From assembly GCA_023898565.1 (NCBI GenBank), contig CP060228.1, positions 696,995-760,994 of the forward strand: a DNA stretch of 64,000 bases, given 5' to 3'. Shown here one piece after another: positions 5,317 through 45,089 of this stretch; the first letter of the stretch is position 1; the number at the start of each line of letters is the position of its first letter. Made by a program: the position numbers and the translations under genes. The notes beneath the pieces were generated by a model that was given only the letters and a program-made list of their open reading frames with translations, had not been told where the DNA came from and made no database searches. The stretch is from Candidatus Nomurabacteria bacterium. Lineage in GTDB: Bacteria > Patescibacteriota > Minisyncoccia > Phycocordibacterales > UBA918.

Positions 5317-7959
5317 CTACACCAAAAAGCGGTTGGCAAACCATTTAGCTGCTTCTACCACTACAATGTTTACAAGGCTCCATGCCAGTACAAAGCCGAC
5401 CCAAATCAGTGGCAGCGGCTCAACAGCAAATGTTTCGCGCAACAAGGGTACGGTGAAAGTGGCAATGAGAATCAAGGCGCCAATGCCAACACCTGCTAGC
5501 AGTGTGTGGTTTTCGGTTAGTGAATACTGGTAGACGGGACGGCTGAGGTCGCGGAATGAGAAAGCAATAAACAGCGTGTACGAGCCAAAACTGGCAAATA
5601 TGATGGCTCTAGCCAGCTCAACTGCTAAGCCAAGACTGAGGAGTGCAAGGTATAGGCCAAAGAGCATCAGTGAGACGACAATGCCAATGAAAATAGTAAG
5701 AAATACCACGCGAGGATTGAAGAAATCTTTGCTGGTCACCTCACTTTCTTTCATCTTTTGGCGATCAAAGGCAAAAGCAATAGCTGGTAGGCTGCCGGTA
5801 AAGAGATTGACCCAGATAATCTGCACGGCAGAAAGTGGCAGTGCGACACCGGCCAGGATTGCGCCGCCAATCAAAATGAGCTCGTCCAGCGCGTTTGACA
5901 TTAAGTACACGAACATTTTTTTTATATTGGCCAAGATCTGCTTGCCCTCTTCAATGGTCGCGACAATTGTTTTGAAGTTATCGTCAAGCAAAATAAGATC
6001 AGCGACGCTTTTGGCTACGTCACTTCCTGAGCCAACAGCGATGCCAATGTTGGCAGCTTTAAGCGATGGGGAGTCGTTTACACCATCTCCAGTCATTGCC
6101 ACAATTTCACCACGGGCTTGGAAGAGTTTTGTGACACGAAGCTTATCTTTGGGTGTTACTCGAGCATAGATGCTGATGCGATCGAGTAGGTCAATGAGCT
6201 CTTCATCTGAGAGTTGTTGTAGTTGAGCTCCGGTAAGGACGTTTGCTTCACTCACCTCCCAGCCAACTTCGCGAGCAATTGCCAGCGCTGTGCCAGGCAG
6301 GTCACCGGTAGCCATGACCACGCGAGTGCCATATGAGCTGATGCGCTTTAGGGCTTCTGGCACTTCCGGTCGAATCGGGTCATGAAAACTGAGTACACCA
6401 AGGAACATGAGGTTGGTTACATGCTCGACAGTAATAGCAGTTGGGTCTGTGTGCGGAGTAAGGAGGGCAATGCCGAGTACTCGCCGGCCGTACTTGCTGT
6501 GTTCATTAACCGATGCCTTTAACTGTTCCTTAATTTCGTGCTCGTAGTACGAACGATCGATGAGTATGTCTGGAGCACCCATGACCACGTGAGGGTCTTC
6601 GAATTGTGCAAAATCTTTTGGAAGATAACCGCTGGGGATACGTACTACAGAAAACTTATACTTCGAGCTGAACGGGATACGAATCTGAATGTCAGAACGA
6701 TCTGCCGCGGTTTGTCTTATACCGTGTGCTCCAGCGGCGCGAACAATGTTGGTTTCTAGGCCTGATCCATTCATAACCCAGACACTCGGATCTTCCTCAG
6801 GGTTTTCAATGACTACGTCGGAGGCAGAGCGAGCAAGAAGCAAAATGTCGTGTTGTATGTCGGTAAACTGTCCTTCGCTATCTGAAGGTGTAAATTCAGG
6901 CTCCAGAAGCTGCTTGGTCGAATCAATGTCGATAAGCTGCATATTAGCTTGGGTCAAGGTGCCGGTCTTGTCGGTGATAATCACAGACGTTGAACCAAGC
7001 GTTTCAGCTGCGGTAAGACTGCGCATGATGCCGTTCTTTTCTGCAATGCGGGTGACGCCAATAGCCAAAATTGAGGTGAGGCCAATGGGGAGAGCTTCAG
7101 GCACCGAGCCGACAAACACTGCGATTGAAATGACCAACATCTCCACTAGCTCACGATCTTGCCATAGGCCAATGGCAAAAAGCGCCACTACTGCAATACT
7201 GGTGAAAATAATAATGACCCACGTGAGCTTGGCGAGTGCCTTCTGGAGTGGAGTAAGCTCAGCTTCGGTTTCGTCAACCATGCGGGCAAGCTTGCCAATC
7301 TCGGTGTCGTAGCCGGTTGCGGTTACAACAGCATAGGCGGAACCGTCGATACCGAGTGTGCCGGCGTAGAGCATGTTGGTGCGTTCGGGCAGGGTGGCAG
7401 TTTCCGAGAGTGGCTCAATAGTTTTTTCCACCGGAAGTGATTCGCCAGTCAAAATGGCCTCGTCAGCGGTGAAGTTTATTTCTTTTATGATACGCGCATC
7501 GGCCGTGATGCGGGCACCGTGAGTAACATGGAGGATATCGCCAGGCACGATATACCTTGGATCAATTTCTGACTCATGGCCGTCACGAATTACCAAGGTG
7601 CGATGGGTAATGTACGACTTGAGGCTGTCGATGGCTCGCTCTGCTTTGTACTCTTGTATAAAGCCCAAAATAGCGTTCACGATTACAGCAAACGCGATAA
7701 TCGACATGTCGAGCCACTCTTGCAGGCCGGCAGTAATGACTGTCGCGATACAAAGGATAATGATAAGCGGGCTAGTGAATTGTTGCAGTAAAATGGTCAT
7801 CGGCCCCTTCTTTTGTTCTGATTCAAAAATATTTTCGCCGAATTCCTTGCGGCGAGTGACTGCCTCAACTTCTGTGAGACCATGTTGCTCGTTAGTGTGA
7901 AGCGCGTTTAGTACTTCTTCCTCAGCGTCTGACCAAGGTCTATGCGGTGTGCTAATCAT
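5317..7959 (-). CDS. cation-transporting P-type ATPase (type IIA, Ca2+/Mg2+-like)
   Basis: 880 aa. TGESLPVEK, phosphorylation site DKTGTLT, hinge MTGDGVNDSPSLKAANIGIAVG, about 10 TM helices. Confidence 0.85.
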   Translation of the reverse strand: MISTPHRPWSDAEEEVLNALHTNEQHGLTEVEAVTRRKEFGENIFESEQKKGPMTILLQQFTSPLIIILCIATVITAGLQEWLDMSIIAFAVIVNAILGFIQEYKAERAIDSLKSYITHRTLVIRDGHESEIDPRYIVPGDILHVTHGARITADARIIKEINFTADEAILTGESLPVEKTIEPLSETATLPERTNMLYAGTLGIDGSAYAVVTATGYDTEIGKLARMVDETEAELTPLQKALAKLTWVIIIFTSIAVVALFAIGLWQDRELVEMLVISIAVFVGSVPEALPIGLTSILAIGVTRIAEKNGIMRSLTAAETLGSTSVIITDKTGTLTQANMQLIDIDSTKQLLEPEFTPSDSEGQFTDIQHDILLLARSASDVVIENPEEDPSVWVMNGSGLETNIVRAAGAHGIRQTAADRSDIQIRIPFSSKYKFSVVRIPSGYLPKDFAQFEDPHVVMGAPDILIDRSYYEHEIKEQLKASVNEHSKYGRRVLGIALLTPHTDPTAITVEHVTNLMFLGVLSFHDPIRPEVPEALKRISSYGTRVVMATGDLPGTALAIAREVGWEVSEANVLTGAQLQQLSDEELIDLLDRISIYARVTPKDKLRVTKLFQARGEIVAMTGDGVNDSPSLKAANIGIAVGSGSDVAKSVADLILLDDNFKTIVATIEEGKQILANIKKMFVYLMSNALDELILIGGAILAGVALPLSAVQIIWVNLFTGSLPAIAFAFDRQKMKESEVTSKDFFNPRVVFLTIFIGIVVSLMLFGLYLALLSLGLAVELARAIIFASFGSYTLFIAFSFRDLSRPVYQYSLTENHTLLAGVGIGALILIATFTVPLLRETFAVEPLPLIWVGFVLAWSLVNIVVVEAAKWFANRFLV

Positions 7960-8031: not shown

Positions 8032-8694
8032 ATGAAAAATCCATGGGTAATTATCGGCATCATCTGTGTCGCGCTCTTCGGCGGAGCGATTTGGTATTCA
8101 GGCTCTTCGGCGGAGCAATATAATGAAGGTTTGATTGAAACAGAACACGTAAAGGGCAATTCGGAAGCATCGGTGGTGCTGTTGGAGTACAGTGATTTGC
8201 AGTGTCCAGCGTGTGCTGCGTTTCAGCCAGCACTTAGTAGTGTACTTGAGGCTTATGGTGACAATCTTCGCTTTGAGTATCGGCATTTTCCACTACCGAT
8301 TCATCCACATTCAGTAGAAGCGGCCGTGGCTTCTGAAGCAGCTGCACAGCAAGGTAAATTCTTCGAGTTTAGCGATATGCTCTTTGAGCGACAGCAGGAG
8401 TGGGCAGGTATGGCTGTGCCACAGACGCAGTTTGTAAAGTATGCCGATGAACTTGGTATGGATGTTGATTTGTTTCGCAAGCAGCTCCGTGCGCCAAACC
8501 TAAAAGATAAAGTGCAGGCGCAGTTCAATGAAGCTCGTGAGCTTGGTCTAACTGGTACTCCAACTTTCTTTCTTAATGGCAAGAAGATGGAGATGGAGTC
8601 ATATCAAGACTTTATTACGCAGATTGCACTAGCAGTAAATCCTGAAACGGCATCGAGCACCAATGATGAGTCAGGTGTTACGTTTGGTTTCTAA
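8032..8694 (+). CDS. DsbA/BdbD-family thiol:disulfide oxidoreductase, membrane-anchored
   Basis: N-terminal TM; YSDLQCPACAAF (CPAC active site) thioredoxin fold. ATG at 8032 preceded by TGGTACACT -10-like box; the upstream extension of listed ORF 7942 overlaps the ATPase gene and is rejected. Confidence 0.7.
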   Translation: MKNPWVIIGIICVALFGGAIWYSGSSAEQYNEGLIETEHVKGNSEASVVLLEYSDLQCPACAAFQPALSSVLEAYGDNLRFEYRHFPLPIHPHSVEAAVASEAAAQQGKFFEFSDMLFERQQEWAGMAVPQTQFVKYADELGMDVDLFRKQLRAPNLKDKVQAQFNEARELGLTGTPTFFLNGKKMEMESYQDFITQIALAVNPETASSTNDESGVTFGF

Positions 8695-8702
8695 GGTGCC
8701 TT

Positions 8703-9956
8703 ATGAAGCAGTCTAAGGTAGTTGCGGTTACTGGAACTAAAGGAAAAACGACTGTTGTCACTGTTCTCGCAGAAGTTTTACGTGCGCTTACCAAAAAGGA
8801 TACGATTCACGTCACCACGACGGGACATTTTGTGAACGGGGAGCGTCGAAGTACGCTCGATGAATCATTAGCGACATGGGGTTTGGTTCCTTCGGTCTGT
8901 CCGGGGCGGTACCTATATGAAAGTTTGTCTTTCAAGGAAAGAGGAGTTGCTGTCCTCGAGTCATCTCTTGGGAGTAGCAGTATTAACGGAATGGGATACT
9001 CTTGGCATGAAGTTGGGATTTTTTTAAACGTCTTTAAAGACCATATCGGAAATTCGAGTCGCATTAAGTCACAAGCGGATATTCTCAAGGCAAAAAAATT
9101 TATTTTTACTCGTATTAGACGACACGAGGGTTGGGGGGTCTACAATGCCGACGACGCTCTTATTTGTTCTGCTGTGCCCGACATTGATCCCTCAGTAAGG
9201 CTTGTTTCATTTGGACTTGCCGATGTGGCTGCTAGTGAGCGACATGTGTTTGTTAAAGATGGGATGGTAACGTACCGCACTGCCGACAAGCGTTTAGTTT
9301 CTGTGGTTGCGCTTGCCGATGTTTCTTGGACGTTTCAGGGTTTGTATGAGCCATCGGTCTATAATCTTTTGGCTGTGGTAGCCGGGGTAATTGCGTTTCA
9401 TGAAGGCAACTTGCCACATGTGCTCAGTGAGATTTTGACCAAGATTAAGCTTGACCCGTATGGTGGTAGGTTAACGCTGCTGCGTAACAAGGAAGGTGTC
9501 AGAATCTTGGCTGATTATGCTCATGAAGAACAATCACTGTGCGCTGTCGGTGAGCTGGCGAGGGCTTTGGCTGGCGATGGGGGTCAGGTGATAGGTGTTG
9601 TTCGTTTGGCTTACGATCGCACCGAGCAGCATATTGCGGAGACCGCAAAAGGGATTGCTAAAAGTTTCGATCGATTCGTAGTATATGACAAGATTGACGG
9701 ATATTACCGGCTGCCAAACACACAGCTTCAGAGTAAGCTCTTCACACAGGAGGTTGGAAAGGTGTCAGAGCTTTTAGCGGATCAGCTTTCGGCCAATGGT
9801 GCTGCTAAGGTTGATCGAATTCTTCGTGAAGATGAAGCGATTACATTTGCTGCCAAAGAAGCGAGGGCGGGCGACGTGGTCGTACATATTGTAAATGACG
9901 ACATCACTCGATCGGTCAATTGGCTGCGAGAATACTTTGGTGCTGACTTTGTCTAA
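8703..9956 (+). CDS. Mur-ligase-family protein (central and C-terminal domains only; CphA M-domain/CapB/MurT-like)
   Basis: P-loop VAVTGTKGKTT at residues 7-17. Mur-ligase signature ESSLGSS...NVFKDHIG. No N-terminal MurC/D/E-type domain. Confidence 0.65.
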   Translation: MKQSKVVAVTGTKGKTTVVTVLAEVLRALTKKDTIHVTTTGHFVNGERRSTLDESLATWGLVPSVCPGRYLYESLSFKERGVAVLESSLGSSSINGMGYSWHEVGIFLNVFKDHIGNSSRIKSQADILKAKKFIFTRIRRHEGWGVYNADDALICSAVPDIDPSVRLVSFGLADVAASERHVFVKDGMVTYRTADKRLVSVVALADVSWTFQGLYEPSVYNLLAVVAGVIAFHEGNLPHVLSEILTKIKLDPYGGRLTLLRNKEGVRILADYAHEEQSLCAVGELARALAGDGGQVIGVVRLAYDRTEQHIAETAKGIAKSFDRFVVYDKIDGYYRLPNTQLQSKLFTQEVGKVSELLADQLSANGAAKVDRILREDEAITFAAKEARAGDVVVHIVNDDITRSVNWLREYFGADFV

Positions 9957-10102
9957 GTTTTGTCAAGAGTTGTCACTGCACAAGATGTGTGTTGGCATTG
10001 GAATTTACACTAATTCCGGTGTATGCTTTTAGCTGTCTGAATACAGCGTTCTGGATATGCAGTGTGATTGAATAACTGCTTTTTTATTTTTTAAGCATTC
10101 TT

Positions 10103-11407
10103 ATGAAGAAGGAGAAGAACATCATCGTGTACGTTATGAACTTGCCTGCTGGTACGGTAGAAGCGGTTCGTGAGTACGAAAAGACTTTAGGACATCAACT
10201 GCAGATTATGTTGTTGCGTGATTCTCGCGTTCCAGATAAGAAGGGTCTTTCGAGTACTCCAGGCTTAGATATTCTAATTTCATGCGACTTCTCCAAGCCA
10301 GAAAAGATTGCCGAGGCGCTGTTGCCGTATGAAGACGAACTTCTGGCTATTACCTGCCGCTCGGAGCAGAGCATGGCGCGGTTTGCTGATGTGCTTCCGC
10401 ATGTGCCGTACTTGCGCACTCCTACGACAGAATCCCTTCGTTGGGCGAGTGATAAATATGAAATGCGTAAGCGTTTCAAGGTGTATGATCCAAAAATTAC
10501 CCCGAAGTTTACGCTAGTCAAAAAGAACTCCAAACCGGAGCGTGATCGGGTAATTAAGAAAATCGGCTTTCCGATGATTATTAAGCCAACTAATATGGCA
10601 GCTAGTCTTTTTGTGACCATTTGTTATCACGAAGAAGAGCTGGATTATGCACTCCGGACAATTTTTCGAAAGATTAAAAGGGCGTACGAAAATGACAACC
10701 GACTGGAAGAGCCTAAAGTAATCGCTGAAGAATATATGGACGGCGATTTGTACTCAATTGATTCGTACGTGGATTCTCGCGGTAAGGTATATCACTGCCC
10801 GCTAGTGCGCCAAATTACTGCCAAGAAAAATGGCCATGACGATTTTTATAATTATCTGCAAATGACCCCGTCTGGCTTAAAATCAGAAACGGTGGCTAAG
10901 GCAGAGTTGGCGGCAGAAAAGGCGACTCATGCCCTTGGGCTGCGCAGCTCGATTGTGCACTCTGAGCTTATGAAGGTAGATGACGAGTGGAAAATTGTGG
11001 AGGTGGCTGCGCGTATGGGTGGGTACCGACATCTCCTTCATAAGCTTAGCTGTGATATTAACCATGCGCTCAATGATGTTTTAATTCGCATTCCAAAGAA
11101 GCCAATTATTCCTAAAAAATGTAAGGGGTACGCTTGCGCGATGAAGTGGTTTGCGGCTAAGGAGGGAAAGATTACTGAACTTAAAGGTATCAAAAAAATT
11201 GAAGCGCTTGAGTCTTTCCACAAAATTGACGTAAAAAAGAAAGTGGGCGATCGAGCAGTGTTTGCGCGCAACGGTGGTCGGTCAGTGTTTGATCTTTTCT
11301 TGTATAACGATGATCGTTCTAAGTTGTTGGCTGATATTAGGCGTGCAGAGAAGTTGGTTGAGGTGAAGGTGGCAGCACGTACGGGTGGTAAGAAGAAGGT
11401 TGTGTAG
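10103..11407 (+). CDS. ATP-grasp domain carboxylate-amine/amino-acid ligase
   Basis: ATP-grasp motifs KIGFPMIIKP, VIAEEYMDGDLYSIDSYVD, HSELMKVDDEWKIVEVAARMGG. Lys-rich C-terminal tail. Immediately follows the Mur-ligase gene. Confidence 0.6.
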   Translation: MKKEKNIIVYVMNLPAGTVEAVREYEKTLGHQLQIMLLRDSRVPDKKGLSSTPGLDILISCDFSKPEKIAEALLPYEDELLAITCRSEQSMARFADVLPHVPYLRTPTTESLRWASDKYEMRKRFKVYDPKITPKFTLVKKNSKPERDRVIKKIGFPMIIKPTNMAASLFVTICYHEEELDYALRTIFRKIKRAYENDNRLEEPKVIAEEYMDGDLYSIDSYVDSRGKVYHCPLVRQITAKKNGHDDFYNYLQMTPSGLKSETVAKAELAAEKATHALGLRSSIVHSELMKVDDEWKIVEVAARMGGYRHLLHKLSCDINHALNDVLIRIPKKPIIPKKCKGYACAMKWFAAKEGKITELKGIKKIEALESFHKIDVKKKVGDRAVFARNGGRSVFDLFLYNDDRSKLLADIRRAEKLVEVKVAARTGGKKKVV

Positions 11408-11424
11408 GGCGGGGCGACTGTGCA

Positions 11425-11457
11425 AAGGGCGGCAGCCTTCGGCTGCCGCCCTTTGCT
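11425..11457 (+). terminator. intrinsic terminator followed directly by a TATAAT promoter box
   Basis: aaagggcggcagcc-ttc-ggctgccgcccttt hairpin then T-run; TATAAT at 11457-11462. Confidence 0.6.
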
Positions 11458-11468
11458 ATAATACACAC

Positions 11469-12248
11469 ATGTTCAGAACACGAGATTTTTTGCTGTTGTT
11501 CACCACGATCGTTTTTCTGATAGTTGCTATCGGAACAACAATCTTTTCGGAGTGGACTGGTACTTCAAGTGCCAAAGATTCACCTTTGCAACCTGTCACG
11601 GCAGTGCATGATGCGTACACTGCTACGGTGGTTTTGCCAGAGACGCTGTCTCGTCAAGAGCGGCTGGCCGAAATGCGTAGGAAAGTTGCTGAAAGCGAAT
11701 CGTTGATGCTAGCTGCTGCCTCCACTGAAGTGTCAGAGGAGGAATCGACAGCTGAATCAGCTAGCGAAACCGATGGTGGTGTTGTGTCAGTTGCTGTCTC
11801 ATGTCCGGCACCAACGCCGTATGGCGGCATATGGCCTCGTGGTGTTTCGTTTGAGTTACGTGAAGGTGCTCGAGTATTATATACAGAATCTACAGTAGTG
11901 GAGCCCGCGATTGGTACTGGCACTCCGCAGACCACGACTGCGCAAGAAGTGGTCCTCCAATTGCCAGTTCCGTTTGGTCCAGCCCCTAACCCTACTTGCC
12001 CAGCCAATGACGTGATTGGTATAGCACAAGACGGTTCGCTTATCCGCAATACTGAAGTTGGTTTGTACTCGGTTTTTGGAGAGAGTACGCTTATTGGATA
12101 CGCCCTCGACGGATTTCCGATTTACGGTGTTTCAAGTGTGGCTACCGATGAATGCGGTGGTGCGGTGGTGGGCACCTATCGATACTATTTGAGTGATAAT
12201 CGGCCACTTATTTTAAACTGTTATTCAGGAACGCCAGTTAAAATGTAG
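11469..12248 (+). CDS. membrane-anchored secreted protein with a degenerate YHYH-like C-terminal domain
   Basis: ATG at 11469 lies 6 nt after the TATAAT box, so the transcript is probably leaderless. TM anchor, Ser/Glu/Thr-rich linker. C-terminal GYALDGFPIYG motif with YRYY in place of YHYH. Confidence 0.4.
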   Translation: MFRTRDFLLLFTTIVFLIVAIGTTIFSEWTGTSSAKDSPLQPVTAVHDAYTATVVLPETLSRQERLAEMRRKVAESESLMLAAASTEVSEEESTAESASETDGGVVSVAVSCPAPTPYGGIWPRGVSFELREGARVLYTESTVVEPAIGTGTPQTTTAQEVVLQLPVPFGPAPNPTCPANDVIGIAQDGSLIRNTEVGLYSVFGESTLIGYALDGFPIYGVSSVATDECGGAVVGTYRYYLSDNRPLILNCYSGTPVKM

Positions 12249-13021: not shown

Positions 13022-14194
13022 ATGGAGATTAAGCAGATTTTTGTTGGCGGCTGGTTTCAGCGTACTCGTTTGCACTTAGGTGAAATTTACGACTTTCTGC
13101 GCGTAGCTGAATCGCCACTTGCGCTTGATAAAAAGCGGCTTGAATCTCTTCGAGCTTCTCTAGAAATTGATACTTTAAAGCTTCAGGTTGACCAGCTCGA
13201 ATACATCATGCTCACTAGTGGTGAGGTTAAGGTAAAGATTTTTGAAGACGGATTGATTGTCTTAGGGACGCATCATTCACATGATCTTCAGGCAGATATA
13301 AAACGACTGACGTCATACTATGAGGAGCAGTTATCACCCGCTATTGGCTACATATTCAGCTTGGGTGCGCCTGTGCCGAAGGAGTTGGCAAATATAAAGA
13401 CGGTTTACCCGTATTTTGTAACAACTACAAATGCTTCAGAAAAAAGAGTCAATGAACTGTTTGATGAATTTACGCAAGAACGCTACTTCACTGTAAACGG
13501 TGAGTCTTTTGATATTTATCGCGGAGATAAGTTGTATATTATTAACCAGAACAGTGTCTCTGACGATGAGGTTGAGCGCTTTGTTGGAGAACAGATTTTT
13601 GTACGTGAATTTCGTGGTCAGTTGCACCGCTACTTGAATTTGCATCGTACTATCTGGGAGCGTATCGCTGATGTGGTGGAGCGTGGTGAAATGATTGGTT
13701 CTGATATACCTGCCTTTAAGAGTAAAGTAGATGAGTATGCAAAGACTATTAGTTTCATCGGTACTCGTATTAATCAGATGGACACCTACCTGCTTACACG
13801 AAAGAATGTTTCTGACAGCGATCCAAAGCTTGTTCGATTTCAAGAAGTACTCGGATATAAACATGAAGCGCTTGGTGATACGCTCGAATACATTAAGGAT
13901 ATTTGGACGCTGACACGTGAATACGTTGCTTCGGCTTCGCAGGTCTTTTCAGATTTGGCCGCCAAGAGTACAGGAAATTCAGTAAAAAATCTCACCATTG
14001 TGACGTCCATGGGTGTAGGCGCTACGTTAATTGGGCTCTTTACCACTAAGACATTGCCACAGTTTACGCTGGTTGGAGTCGGGTACTTCTTTGCTTTGGC
14101 ACTACTTGGGTACTTGGTTAATAAAGGTCTTGGTGTCTGGAGTGCGCGCAAGCGCTATCCAATACGCGTAGTCGAGGTAGCAAAAGACATTTAG
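13022..14194 (+). CDS. hypothetical membrane protein with CorA-like architecture (large cytoplasmic domain plus 2 C-terminal TM), GMN motif absent
   Basis: About 330-aa soluble region then two TM helices and a basic C-terminus; no G-M-N signature. Confidence 0.3.
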   Translation: MEIKQIFVGGWFQRTRLHLGEIYDFLRVAESPLALDKKRLESLRASLEIDTLKLQVDQLEYIMLTSGEVKVKIFEDGLIVLGTHHSHDLQADIKRLTSYYEEQLSPAIGYIFSLGAPVPKELANIKTVYPYFVTTTNASEKRVNELFDEFTQERYFTVNGESFDIYRGDKLYIINQNSVSDDEVERFVGEQIFVREFRGQLHRYLNLHRTIWERIADVVERGEMIGSDIPAFKSKVDEYAKTISFIGTRINQMDTYLLTRKNVSDSDPKLVRFQEVLGYKHEALGDTLEYIKDIWTLTREYVASASQVFSDLAAKSTGNSVKNLTIVTSMGVGATLIGLFTTKTLPQFTLVGVGYFFALALLGYLVNKGLGVWSARKRYPIRVVEVAKDI

Positions 14195-44977: not shown

Positions 44978-45089
44978 AGCAATTCTTATAATCATAGCTG
45001 GACTCGTGTTATTTTATTTTGCGAACCTGGCTTTTCTTGGTGAGATGTAGACAAAACGCTATAAAGTAAGTATGCTAGCGATGTTCGTG

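What the first reader, a model, noticed from the sequence alone, without database searches (positions are those of the whole stretch)
8703..11407. Mur-ligase-like gene plus ATP-grasp ligase gene: possible split, order-reversed cyanophycin-synthetase-like or novel peptide-forming system
Two adjacent plus-strand genes ending in a strong terminator at 11425-11457 encode two proteins. The first is a 417-aa Mur-ligase-family protein: P-loop VAVTGTKGKTT at the extreme N-terminus, ESSLGSS...NVFKDHIG signature, and no MurC/D/E N-domain. The second is a 434-aa ATP-grasp enzyme. Cyanophycin synthetase CphA carries the same two catalytic modules fused in the opposite order (ATP-grasp then Mur ligase). 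Poly-gamma-glutamate synthase CapB and the MurT/GatD system are other N-domain-less Mur ligases with dedicated partners. Two separate polypeptides in this order, in a small genome, is unusual. It could mean a non-ribosomal amino-acid polymer or a cell-wall stem-peptide modification made by a two-enzyme system.
Basis: partly seen in the sequence, partly recalled or inferred. Interest (0 to 1): 0.6.

Follow-up and report, generated by a model that had tools for sequence, protein, structure and literature searches.

The report
Stand-alone cyanophycin-type ligase beside unrelated ATP-grasp
A small-genome (Kaiserbacteria) bacterium encodes a free-standing copy of the side-chain-adding half of cyanophycin synthetase, but the ATP-grasp gene next to it is a separately controlled core gene rather than the missing other half, which relatives encode as a different gene that this region lacks.

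Summary
Gene A (8703-9956, 417 aa) is a Mur-ligase protein with no N-domain. Gene B (10103-11407, 434 aa) is an ATP-grasp enzyme.

Gene A's closest relative by sequence and fold is the M-domain of cyanophycin synthetase CphA1, and its catalytic residues are intact. It belongs to an uncharacterised stand-alone family of about 100 clusters at 50% identity, mostly in Patescibacteria.

Gene B is an L-amino-acid-ligase-type ATP-grasp (BacD-like), not CphA-G-like. It is 60-80% identical across the 80 metagenome relatives, has its own conserved promoter/operator element, and lacks gene A in 47 of 51 related loci.

Gene A's recurrent partners elsewhere are RimK-type or CphA-G-type ATP-grasp genes, often with a RimB-like protease. 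These lie nearby in 22 of 33 loci, including 6 of 12 in the window's own clade. The 64-kb window has none.

So split G+M pairs do exist in relatives, but this pair is not one. The two genes sit in a variable slot rich in ligase genes between a DsbA-like gene and gene B. Whether they share a pathway, and what the product is, remains open. I rate it a new variant of a known kind, of moderate interest.

The parts
8703..9956 (+). Gene A: a stand-alone ATP-dependent amide ligase (417 aa) resembling the CphA1 M-domain, made of Mur_ligase_M and Mur_ligase_C with no N-domain.
   Evidence: ORF. Pfam. Best NCBIfam match is TIGR02068 cyanophycin synthetase, profile positions 481-859, 140 bits. Family profile against PDB: CphA1 E=1e-37, best MurE 7.5e-11. 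Model pLDDT 92.3. Foldseek top hits are CphA1 at TMq 0.78-0.79, against 0.70 or less for MurE. K15, T16, E86, D113/H114, N221, R256 and H274 align with tested or ATP/Mg-binding CphA1 residues and are invariant in 27 homologs (PMC9427784, PMC9262961).
10103..11407 (+). Gene B: an L-amino-acid-ligase-type ATP-grasp enzyme (434 aa), a highly conserved gene with its own regulatory region.
   Evidence: ATP-grasp_4 74.7 bits; LAL_C2 23.8 bits, below its 29.4 cut-off. Best PDB matches are BacD (profile E=3e-14) and BL00235. All Ddl, PurT and PylC models score far below their cut-offs. The 120 listed relatives are 69-100% identical. The AlphaFold model was poor (pLDDT 60) and was not used.
8032..8694 (+). 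DsbA-like thioredoxin-fold gene (220 aa from the ATG at 8032; the longest ORF starts at 7942). It is the conserved left border of the variable slot and ends 8 nt before gene A.
   Evidence: Thioredoxin_4 and DSBA. Gene callers use the 220-aa form. A homolog lies upstream of gene B in 54 of 80 metagenome loci (51 after removing duplicates); the 26 without one all have under 2.5 kb of upstream sequence.
9980..10027 (+). Bipartite element specific to gene B: the box ACAAGATGTGTGTTG (family consensus AACAACATGTGTGTTG), about 28 nt of spacer, then GTATGCT (10021-10027). It is probably an operator plus a -10-like promoter element.
   Evidence: The GTATGCT (or GTATAGT) half is found upstream of gene B homologs in 47 of 70 non-redundant loci, whatever gene lies upstream, and most of those also show the box about 28 nt before it. 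It occurs once in the 64-kb window, against 0 expected by chance.
10059..10092 (+). Short GCAGT...ACTGC hairpin followed by T6-A-T6, 10 nt before the gene B start codon. It is a terminator-like leader element seen only in the closer relatives.
   Evidence: Sequence. The same GCAG..CTGC+T-run arrangement is in L085, L086, L088-L092, L096/L098 and L126. The stem is part of the minimum-energy fold, but the spacer as a whole folds no better than shuffles, z = -0.8. No Rfam match.
11422..11456 (+). Perfect 16-bp GC-rich hairpin after gene B, with no U-tract. TATAAT follows directly, 9 nt before the next gene's ATG at 11469.
   Evidence: Minimum free energy -38.3 kcal/mol, z = -4.5, 0 of 200 shuffles as good. 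Sequence. Its arm sequence matches exactly nowhere else in the window; the only other hit, at 45089, has one mismatch.

Best explanation
These are two separate ATP-dependent amide-bond ligases. They are neighbours because both sit in a variable, ligase-rich slot of Paceibacteria-type genomes. They are not the two halves of one enzyme.

Gene A is a free-standing homolog of the cyanophycin synthetase M-domain. By analogy, which is inference, it phosphorylates a carboxylate and joins an amino acid to it through an isopeptide or peptide bond. The carboxylate is most likely the side-chain carboxylate of an Asp or Glu at the end of a peptide or poly-amino-acid chain. In relatives that chain would be made by a RimK-type or CphA-G-type ATP-grasp enzyme encoded next to it, and in Saccharibacteria trimmed by a RimB-like protease. 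This 64-kb window has no such partner.

Gene B is an L-amino-acid-ligase-type ATP-grasp of unknown substrate. It is the constant element of the locus, has its own promoter/operator, and does not depend on gene A.

Shown: family assignments, intact catalytic residues, gene-neighbourhood statistics, and the separate regulatory element. Inferred: substrates, products, and whether gene A still has an acceptor in this organism.
For: - Gene A resembles the CphA M-domain by sequence, profile and fold. Its catalytic and ATP/Mg residues are conserved (with PMC9427784 and PMC9262961).
- Gene B is LAL-type. CphA and RimK are not among its best 25 NCBIfam matches (36 matched in all) or its PDB matches.
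- Of 33 distinct gene A family loci, 22 have a RimK-type or CphA-G-type ATP-grasp within about 3.5 kb. Seven Saccharibacteria loci show a tight Mur-like/RimB-like/RimK operon with gaps of 0-30 nt.
- The 317-328-aa neighbours match the CphA G-region best: TIGR02068 positions 211-447, and GshAB and CphA1 among solved structures.
- Of 51 non-redundant DsbA..gene B loci, the slot is empty in 17, holds RimK/G-type ATP-grasp in 18, holds other genes in 12, and holds gene A in only 4.
- Gene B has a private conserved upstream element.
- The gap between DsbA and gene A is 8 nt; between gene A and gene B it is 146 nt.
- The gene A copies adjacent to LAL form one clade, so the adjacency is an inherited position.
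- The window has no RimK/G-type gene, and no close RimK ortholog is listed on the 951,832-bp contig.
Against: - The slot next to gene B repeatedly holds amide-ligase genes: RimK-type, G-like, a second LAL paralogue, and gene A. It also holds a MATCAP-type peptidase. This coherence suggests some functional tie to gene B.
- Gene A lies next to a gene B homolog in a very distant lineage in the opposite order (L023), and in a MAG labelled Saccharibacteria (L005).
- In six loci of the window's clade, gene A is kept intact with gene B as the only ATP-grasp nearby. Either a partner is encoded elsewhere, or gene B supplies the substrate.
- Only 64 kb of a roughly 0.95-Mb genome was searched.
- No substrate is known for any of these enzymes.
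Confidence: 0.6

Rival explanations
1. Gene A and gene B work in sequence in one pathway. The LAL-type enzyme makes a dipeptide or short peptide, or replaces the lost G/RimK enzyme. The M-like ligase then adds a further residue to a free carboxylate, giving a small branched peptide or a polymer.
For: They are adjacent in all 12 loci of the window's clade and in distant L023 in reversed order. The gene B neighbourhood is enriched in amide ligases. In many loci the G-like gene is transcribed divergently from gene B across the shared conserved element, which suggests co-regulation of that island. Gene A is retained intact where gene B is the only nearby ATP-grasp.
Against: Gene B occurs without gene A in 47 of 51 loci and is much more conserved, at 60-80% identity against 47-61%. 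Gene A occurs without gene B in 19 of 21 loci of the unbiased scan. Gene B has its own promoter/operator in a 146-bp spacer. Broad gene order is conserved in this lineage anyway, and gene A is closer (8 nt) to a functionally unrelated DsbA-like gene.
Confidence: 0.25
2. The locus makes genuine cyanophycin (a poly-Asp backbone with Arg side chains) using a split synthetase.
For: Gene A matches the CphA model best. JGI and KEGG-style pipelines already name the family cyanophycin synthetase / K03802. Relatives pair it with a CphA-G-like gene.
Against: Gene A scores 140 bits against the 850-bit cut-off of TIGR02068 and covers the M region only. The window has no G-like gene and no CphA N-domain. 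Gene B is not G-like. Identity to the CphA M-domain is only about 20-23%. The adenine-stacking Phe692 is replaced by a family-invariant Pro. In Saccharibacteria the partner is a near-canonical RimK, a glutamate ligase (321.9 bits against a 331-bit cut-off), not an aspartate ligase.
Confidence: 0.05
3. Gene A modifies a peptidoglycan precursor or stem peptide, in the manner of MurT or a MurE variant, with gene B supplying a dipeptide as Ddl does.
For: It belongs to the Mur ligase superfamily, with MurE as its second-best relative. ATP-grasp plus Mur ligase is the logic of Ddl plus MurF (general knowledge).
Against: There is no UDP-binding N-domain, no MurT_C domain and no GatD neighbour. All MurC-F, Mpl and pseudomurein models score far below their cut-offs. 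Distribution among close genomes is patchy, 4 of 51 loci, which does not fit core wall synthesis. The gene is not in a cell-wall gene cluster. L003 carries a separate MurT/GatD pair. Gene B scores 35 bits or less on Ddl models whose cut-offs are 243 bits or more.
Confidence: 0.05
4. Gene A is a functionless remnant left after its G/RimK partner was lost.
For: The partner is absent from the window and from five other loci of the clade.
Against: The reading frame is intact and all catalytic residues are kept. The identical protein is on at least 24 contigs from independent samples. A Shine-Dalgarno-like AAGGTG lies 5 nt upstream of the start. GC and GC3 match the neighbours.
Confidence: 0.05

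Closest known systems
Cyanophycin synthetase 1 (CphA1), M-domain (Mcore + Mlid), e.g. TeCphA1 7WAC-7WAF and SuCphA1 7LG5
   Same: It is the best sequence, profile and fold match to gene A, and both sub-domains are covered. Conserved features are the P-loop Lys/Thr, the Mg-binding Glu, the DH pair whose mutation inactivates the M-domain, and the lid Arg and His that contact ATP.
   Different: Gene A is a separate 417-aa protein with no N or G domains. Identity is only 20-23%. It scores 140 bits against the family cut-off of 850. Phe692 is replaced by Pro217. Substrate is unknown. The window has no G-type partner.
RimK / RimB (RimABK) ribosomal protein S6 polyglutamylation system (PMC11957791, PMC10092738)
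   Same: In Saccharibacteria, gene A homologs sit in tight operons with a RimB-like retropepsin peptidase and a near-canonical RimK. L001 in the window's clade has a RimK-family gene directly upstream of the gene A homolog.
   Different: No Mur-type ligase is part of the described Rim systems. No paper in the searched library combines RimK, RimB and Mur ligase. The window has neither rimK nor rimB.
L-amino acid ligases BacD/YwfE (3WNZ, 3VMM) and BL00235 (3VOT)
   Same: They are the best solved relatives of gene B. The ATP-grasp_4 core and a weak LAL_C2 tail are shared, and the E-x-A-A-R-x-x-G stretch aligns with BacD.
   Different: Gene B scores 42.6 bits against the 850-bit BacD cut-off. It is a core, highly conserved Patescibacteria gene, not part of an antibiotic cluster. 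It has six invariant cysteines. Substrates are unknown.
Cyanophycin synthetase 2 (CphA2) and GshAB ATP-grasp domains
   Same: They are among the best solved relatives of the 317-328-aa G-like proteins encoded next to gene A homologs in L133, L139, L142, L177 and L178.
   Different: Those are domains of larger proteins. Here the G-like unit is a separate gene, and it is absent from the window.
MurT/GatD and CapB/PgsB (other N-domain-less Mur-family ligases with dedicated partners)
   Same: Both use a Mur-type central and C-terminal domain without the UDP-binding N-domain, together with a partner protein.
   Different: Gene A has no MurT_C domain and no GatD, PgsC or PgsA neighbours, and no match to those models.

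Membership tests
Mur ligase superfamily | Mur_ligase_M and Mur_ligase_C domains above Pfam gathering scores, and a P-loop GxxGKT/S | tested here: met
   Gene A scores 53.6 bits (cut-off 24) and 41.2 bits (cut-off 28.4). The P-loop is GTKGKTT at residues 11-17.
Cyanophycin synthetase CphA1 (TIGR02068) | A single polypeptide of about 870-930 aa with N, G (ATP-grasp) and M domains, scoring at least 850 bits | tested here: not met
   Gene A scores 140.2 bits and matches profile positions 481-859 only. Gene B has no CphA match among its best 25 families or its PDB matches.
Cyanophycin synthetase CphA1 (M-domain chemistry) | Catalytic and ATP/Mg residues: TeCphA1 K499, T500, E558, R731, H748; SuCphA1 D585/H586 | tested here: met
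   These align with K15, T16, E86, R256, H274 and D113/H114, all invariant in 27 homologs (PMC9427784, PMC9262961). F692 aligns with Pro217, so that residue differs.
Cyanophycin synthetase CphA1 (product) | Adds L-Arg to the beta-carboxylate of the C-terminal Asp of a poly-Asp primer | not testable with these tools
   The papers read here describe no Arg-binding residues, and no assay is possible.
MurC/MurD/MurE/MurF/Mpl | An N-terminal UDP-MurNAc-binding domain and an equivalog-level score | tested here: not met
   The protein starts 8 residues before the P-loop. The best score is MurE at 79.7 bits against a cut-off of 373, matching profile positions 103-374 only.
MurT/GatD | A MurT_C (PF08353) domain and an adjacent GatD glutaminase | tested here: not met
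   There is no PF08353 hit and no GATase_3 neighbour. L003 has a separate MurT/GatD pair.
FolC / FPGS | TIGR01499 at 162.65 bits or more | tested here: not met
   21.7 bits, covering the P-loop region only.
CapB/PgsB poly-gamma-glutamate synthase | A match to a PgsB model, with pgsC and pgsA neighbours | tested here: not met
   No such family appears among the 23 NCBIfam matches, and the neighbours are unrelated.
L-amino acid ligase (LAL) group of ATP-grasp enzymes (gene B) | An ATP-grasp core plus the LAL C-terminal domain, with closest relatives among characterised LALs | tested here: inconclusive
   ATP-grasp_4 is met at 74.7 bits. LAL_C2 scores 23.8 bits, below its 29.4 cut-off. The best PDB matches are BacD and BL00235. 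All equivalog scores are far below cut-off. No usable model was obtained.
D-Ala-D-Ala ligase / RimK (gene B) | A score at or above the family cut-off | tested here: not met
   Ddl models score 35 bits or less against cut-offs of 243 bits or more. There is no RimK or GSH-S match.

The most novel reading that the evidence does not exclude
The stand-alone M-like ligases are the side-chain-adding half of a modular, split, cyanophycin-like system in Patescibacteria and a few other lineages. A separate RimK-type or CphA-G-type ATP-grasp builds an alpha-linked Glu or Asp chain, either free or on a protein such as ribosomal protein S6. The M-like enzyme decorates its side-chain carboxylates, and a RimB-like protease trims it. 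The product would be a previously unknown branched amino-acid polymer or a branched protein tail. In G-less genomes such as this one, the neighbouring LAL-type ATP-grasp would supply the acceptor.
Probability: 0.25. Interest if true: 0.75.

Novelty: new variant of a known kind. Interest (0 to 1): 0.5.

Why it matters
- Cyanophycin synthetase is the only known enzyme in which a Mur-type ligase decorates a poly-amino-acid backbone. A family of free-standing M-type ligases, repeatedly encoded next to separate G-type or RimK-type ATP-grasp genes and a polyglutamate-specific protease, would show this chemistry is modular. It may point to new branched polymers or protein modifications in ultra-small symbiotic bacteria, whose nitrogen storage and ribosome regulation are poorly understood.
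- There is also a practical point. Pipelines already label these ~420-aa proteins "cyanophycin synthetase" (K03802). That label can lead metabolic reconstructions of Patescibacteria to infer cyanophycin synthesis without a G domain or an N domain. A recent preprint reports cyanophycin synthetase in Saccharimonadia MAGs (bioRxiv 10.64898/2026.09.16.751625). I could not check whether those calls rest on this family.
- For this window the message is more modest.

Tried and rejected
- **Missed N-domain through a mis-called start.** Rejected on ORF limits, homolog lengths, and the alignment to the start of the CphA M-domain.
- **Gene B as CphA-G, RimK or Ddl.** Rejected by family scans.
- **Gene B structure model.** pLDDT was 60 because the alignment rows were all at least 68% identical.
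- **Riboswitch in the 146-bp spacer.** There is no Rfam match at E up to 1, and the fold is no better than shuffles.
- **A RimK-type partner elsewhere in the same genome.** I looked for homologs listed on the 951,832-bp contig. None appeared among only 13 hits, so this is weak negative evidence. The rest of the genome could not be read.
- **The absence of a 100% hit for gene A.** It looked like strain-level absence, but it was a limit of the word index. The exact protein is on at least 24 contigs.
- **Iyer et al. 2009 on amidoligases.** The id I recalled for it from memory (PMC3268129) is not held in the library.
- **Horizontal transfer of gene A.** I found no support. GC and GC3 match the neighbours, and the clade structure fits inheritance in place.
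- **Hairpin after gene B as a repeated element.** Its arm sequence has no other exact copy in the window.
Full report
**What is there.** The window has two + strand ORFs exactly as described: 8703..9956 (417 aa, gene A) and 10103..11407 (434 aa, gene B). Gene B's exact protein is on record as an ATP-grasp protein of Candidatus Kaiserbacteria, on a contig of 951,832 bp. Gene A's exact protein is on at least 24 contigs from many samples, and every place shown has the same local order: P-type ATPase (-), DsbA-like, gene A, gene B, YHYH-like, PolB-exonuclease-like. Gene A follows the DsbA-like gene after 8 nt and has an AAGGTG upstream. Gene B follows gene A after 146 nt. After gene B there is a perfect 16-bp hairpin at 11422-11456 (z = -4.5), but no U-tract follows it.

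**Gene A.** It carries the Mur_ligase_M and Mur_ligase_C domains and nothing before the P-loop. Its best curated-family match is cyanophycin synthetase TIGR02068, at profile positions 481-859. The score is 140 bits, far below the 850-bit cut-off. MurE models come next at 80 bits or less, and FolC reaches 22 bits.

A profile of 27 homologs finds CphA1 chains at E = 1e-37 and the best MurE at 7.5e-11. The AlphaFold model is confident (pLDDT 92.3, pTM 0.92). Its best Foldseek matches are CphA1 structures at TMq 0.78-0.79, ahead of MurE at 0.70 or less.

From the HMMER alignment to TeCphA1 and the residues reported in PMC9427784 and PMC9262961, the key residues map as follows:

| CphA1 residue | Role | Gene A |
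|---|---|---|
| TeCphA1 K499, T500 | P-loop Lys (essential) and Mg-binding Thr | K15, T16 |
| TeCphA1 E558 | Mg binding | E86 |
| SuCphA1 D585/H586 | mutation inactivates the M-domain | D113/H114 |
| TeCphA1 N696 | aligned conserved Asn; no role given in the papers read | N221 |
| TeCphA1 R731, H748 | lid residues contacting ATP | R256, H274 |

All of these are invariant in the family. The adenine-stacking F692 is replaced by an invariant Pro217. I therefore take gene A to be an active ATP-dependent amide ligase of the CphA-M type. Its substrates cannot be read from the sequence.

**Gene B.** It matches ATP-grasp_4 (74.7 bits) and has a sub-threshold LAL_C2 tail. Its best solved relatives are the L-amino-acid ligases BacD and BL00235. 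Ddl, PurT and PylC models are far below their cut-offs, and CphA and RimK are not among its best 25 NCBIfam matches or its PDB matches. It is remarkably conserved: the 120 listed relatives are 69-100% identical. Its structure model was too poor to use.

**Synteny anchored on gene A.** I collected 33 distinct loci from a GTDB species scan, look-ups of close homologs, and the gene B scan.
- A RimK-type or CphA-G-type ATP-grasp lies within about 3.5 kb in 22 of them, and at 6-9 kb in two more.
- Seven Saccharibacteria loci show a tight Mur-like / RimB-like / RimK operon with gaps of 0-30 nt. The RimK there nearly reaches the RimK equivalog cut-off (321.9 against 331 bits).
- In the unbiased subset (L005-L025, 21 loci), a gene B homolog is adjacent in only two, L005 and L023, and in L023 the order is reversed.

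**Synteny anchored on gene B.** Among 80 metagenome loci, the conserved neighbour is the upstream DsbA-like gene. The space between the two is a variable slot. In 51 non-redundant loci the slot holds:

| Slot content | Loci |
|---|---|
| Empty | 17 |
| RimK/G-type ATP-grasp | 18 |
| Other genes | 12 |
| Gene A | 4 |

The "other" group includes an operon of a G-like gene with a second LAL paralogue, a recurrent 249-aa unknown, and a MATCAP/DUF1704 peptidase. The 317-328-aa slot proteins match the G-region of cyanophycin synthetase best (TIGR02068 positions 211-447), and GshAB and CphA1/CphA2 among solved structures. A published ATP-grasp phylogeny places CphA within the RimK group (PMC11915815).

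**The window's own clade.** A neighbour-joining tree puts all gene A copies that lie next to gene B in one clade, sister to the Saccharibacteria RimB/RimK-linked clade. After adding three more close relatives, the clade has 12 loci:
- five pair the M-like gene with a G-like gene (L133, L139, L142, L177, L178);
- one pairs it with a RimK-family gene (L001);
- six, including the window, have neither.

The whole 64-kb window has no RimK/G-type gene. No close RimK ortholog is listed on the 951,832-bp contig, but that search returned only 13 hits, so this is weak evidence.

**Regulation.** Upstream of gene B homologs there is a bipartite element: AACAACATGTGTGTTG, about 28 nt, then GTATGCT. The GTATGCT half was found in 47 of 70 non-redundant loci, whatever gene lies upstream, and most of these also show the box. 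In the window it sits at 9980-10027 and is unique there, with 0 expected by chance. Closer relatives also share a short hairpin plus T-run just before the start codon (window 10059-10092). No Rfam family matches. So gene B has its own control region. Where a G-like gene is present, it is transcribed divergently across the same element.

**Size of the family and prior knowledge.** An exhaustive profile search finds about 100 representatives at 50% identity that are stand-alone proteins of about 400-440 aa (665 down to about 165 bits). Below that, full-length CphA1 proteins appear. Sources name them "Mur ligase family protein", "hypothetical" or "cyanophycin synthetase". I found no paper describing them or linking a Mur-type ligase with RimK/RimB. 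The library is incomplete, and one relevant paper could not be read.

**Conclusion.** The reading as a split, order-reversed CphA does not fit this gene pair, because gene B is the wrong kind of ATP-grasp and is not a dedicated partner. The underlying idea does hold for relatives, which encode CphA-G-like and CphA-M-like enzymes as separate genes. The most likely account is that gene A is a stand-alone side-chain or peptide carboxylate ligase whose usual partner is missing here or encoded elsewhere, and that gene B is an independent core ligase (confidence 0.6). A shared pathway for the two cannot be excluded (0.25), because the gene B neighbourhood is consistently rich in amide ligases. Whether the products are polymers, protein tails or small peptides is unknown. 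The G-like family also has relatives that make small peptides, such as GshAB and the N-acetylglutaminylglutamine synthetase model.

Noticed in passing
window 9980-10027 (and upstream of gene B homologs in L085-L164): A conserved bipartite element, AACAACATGTGTGTTG followed about 28 nt later by GTATGCT, lies upstream of the LAL-type ATP-grasp gene. The GTATGCT half was found in 47 of 70 non-redundant loci whatever the upstream gene, and most of those also carry the box. It is unique in the window. It is probably an operator plus promoter for an unknown regulator.
   Followed up: partly
window 10059-10092: A short GCAGT...ACTGC hairpin with a T6-A-T6 run lies 10 nt before the gene B start codon. 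Closer relatives share it as sequence (GCAG..CTGC+T-run) without obvious covariation. It could be a leader attenuator or a protein-binding site. There is no Rfam match.
   Followed up: partly
L003:5959-10668, L009, L010-L013 (Saccharibacteria loci): A tight operon of an M-like ligase, a RimB-like retropepsin peptidase and a near-canonical RimK. It is sometimes preceded by a second RimK-like gene and a 354-aa protein with no family match. I found no description of it in the searched literature.
   Followed up: partly
L103:504-2693, L143:5619-7785 and similar loci: An operon on the opposite strand, with a CphA-G-like ATP-grasp (317 aa) followed after 3-7 nt by a second LAL-type paralogue (411 aa), sits in the same slot next to the main LAL gene. 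This is another two-ligase pairing of unknown product.
   Followed up: no
L095, L097, L118, L147, L141 (slot between DsbA-like and LAL genes): A recurrent protein of about 249 aa with no Pfam or NCBIfam match. In L141 and L150 it lies next to a RimK-type gene. L124 instead has a MATCAP/DUF1704-type carboxypeptidase homolog in the slot.
   Followed up: no
L017:8114-10542 and L018:10001-12435 (Gammaproteobacteria MAGs): Two tandem paralogues of the M-like ligase with no ATP-grasp detected nearby.
   Followed up: no
window 10103-11407 (gene B protein): Six cysteines (C61, C85, C174, C232, C317, C340) are invariant across 24 homologs of the LAL-type ATP-grasp. This caught my eye because the BacD alignment does not show them conserved, and the conserved neighbour is a DsbA-like oxidoreductase, although that protein appears membrane-anchored and extracytoplasmic.
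   Followed up: no
window 13022-14194: A 390-aa ORF with no Pfam match and a hydrophobic C-terminus is conserved in the closest relatives (L165, L178) between the exonuclease-like gene and the GH1 glycosidase gene, and is absent from L001, L002, L177 and L180.
   Followed up: no
annotations; bioRxiv 10.64898/2026.09.16.751625: JGI and KEGG-style pipelines label these ~420-aa M-domain-only proteins as cyanophycin synthetase (K03802). A recent preprint reports cyanophycin synthetase in 5 of 21 Saccharimonadia MAGs. If those calls rest on this family, the inference of cyanophycin synthesis would be unsafe.
   Followed up: partly
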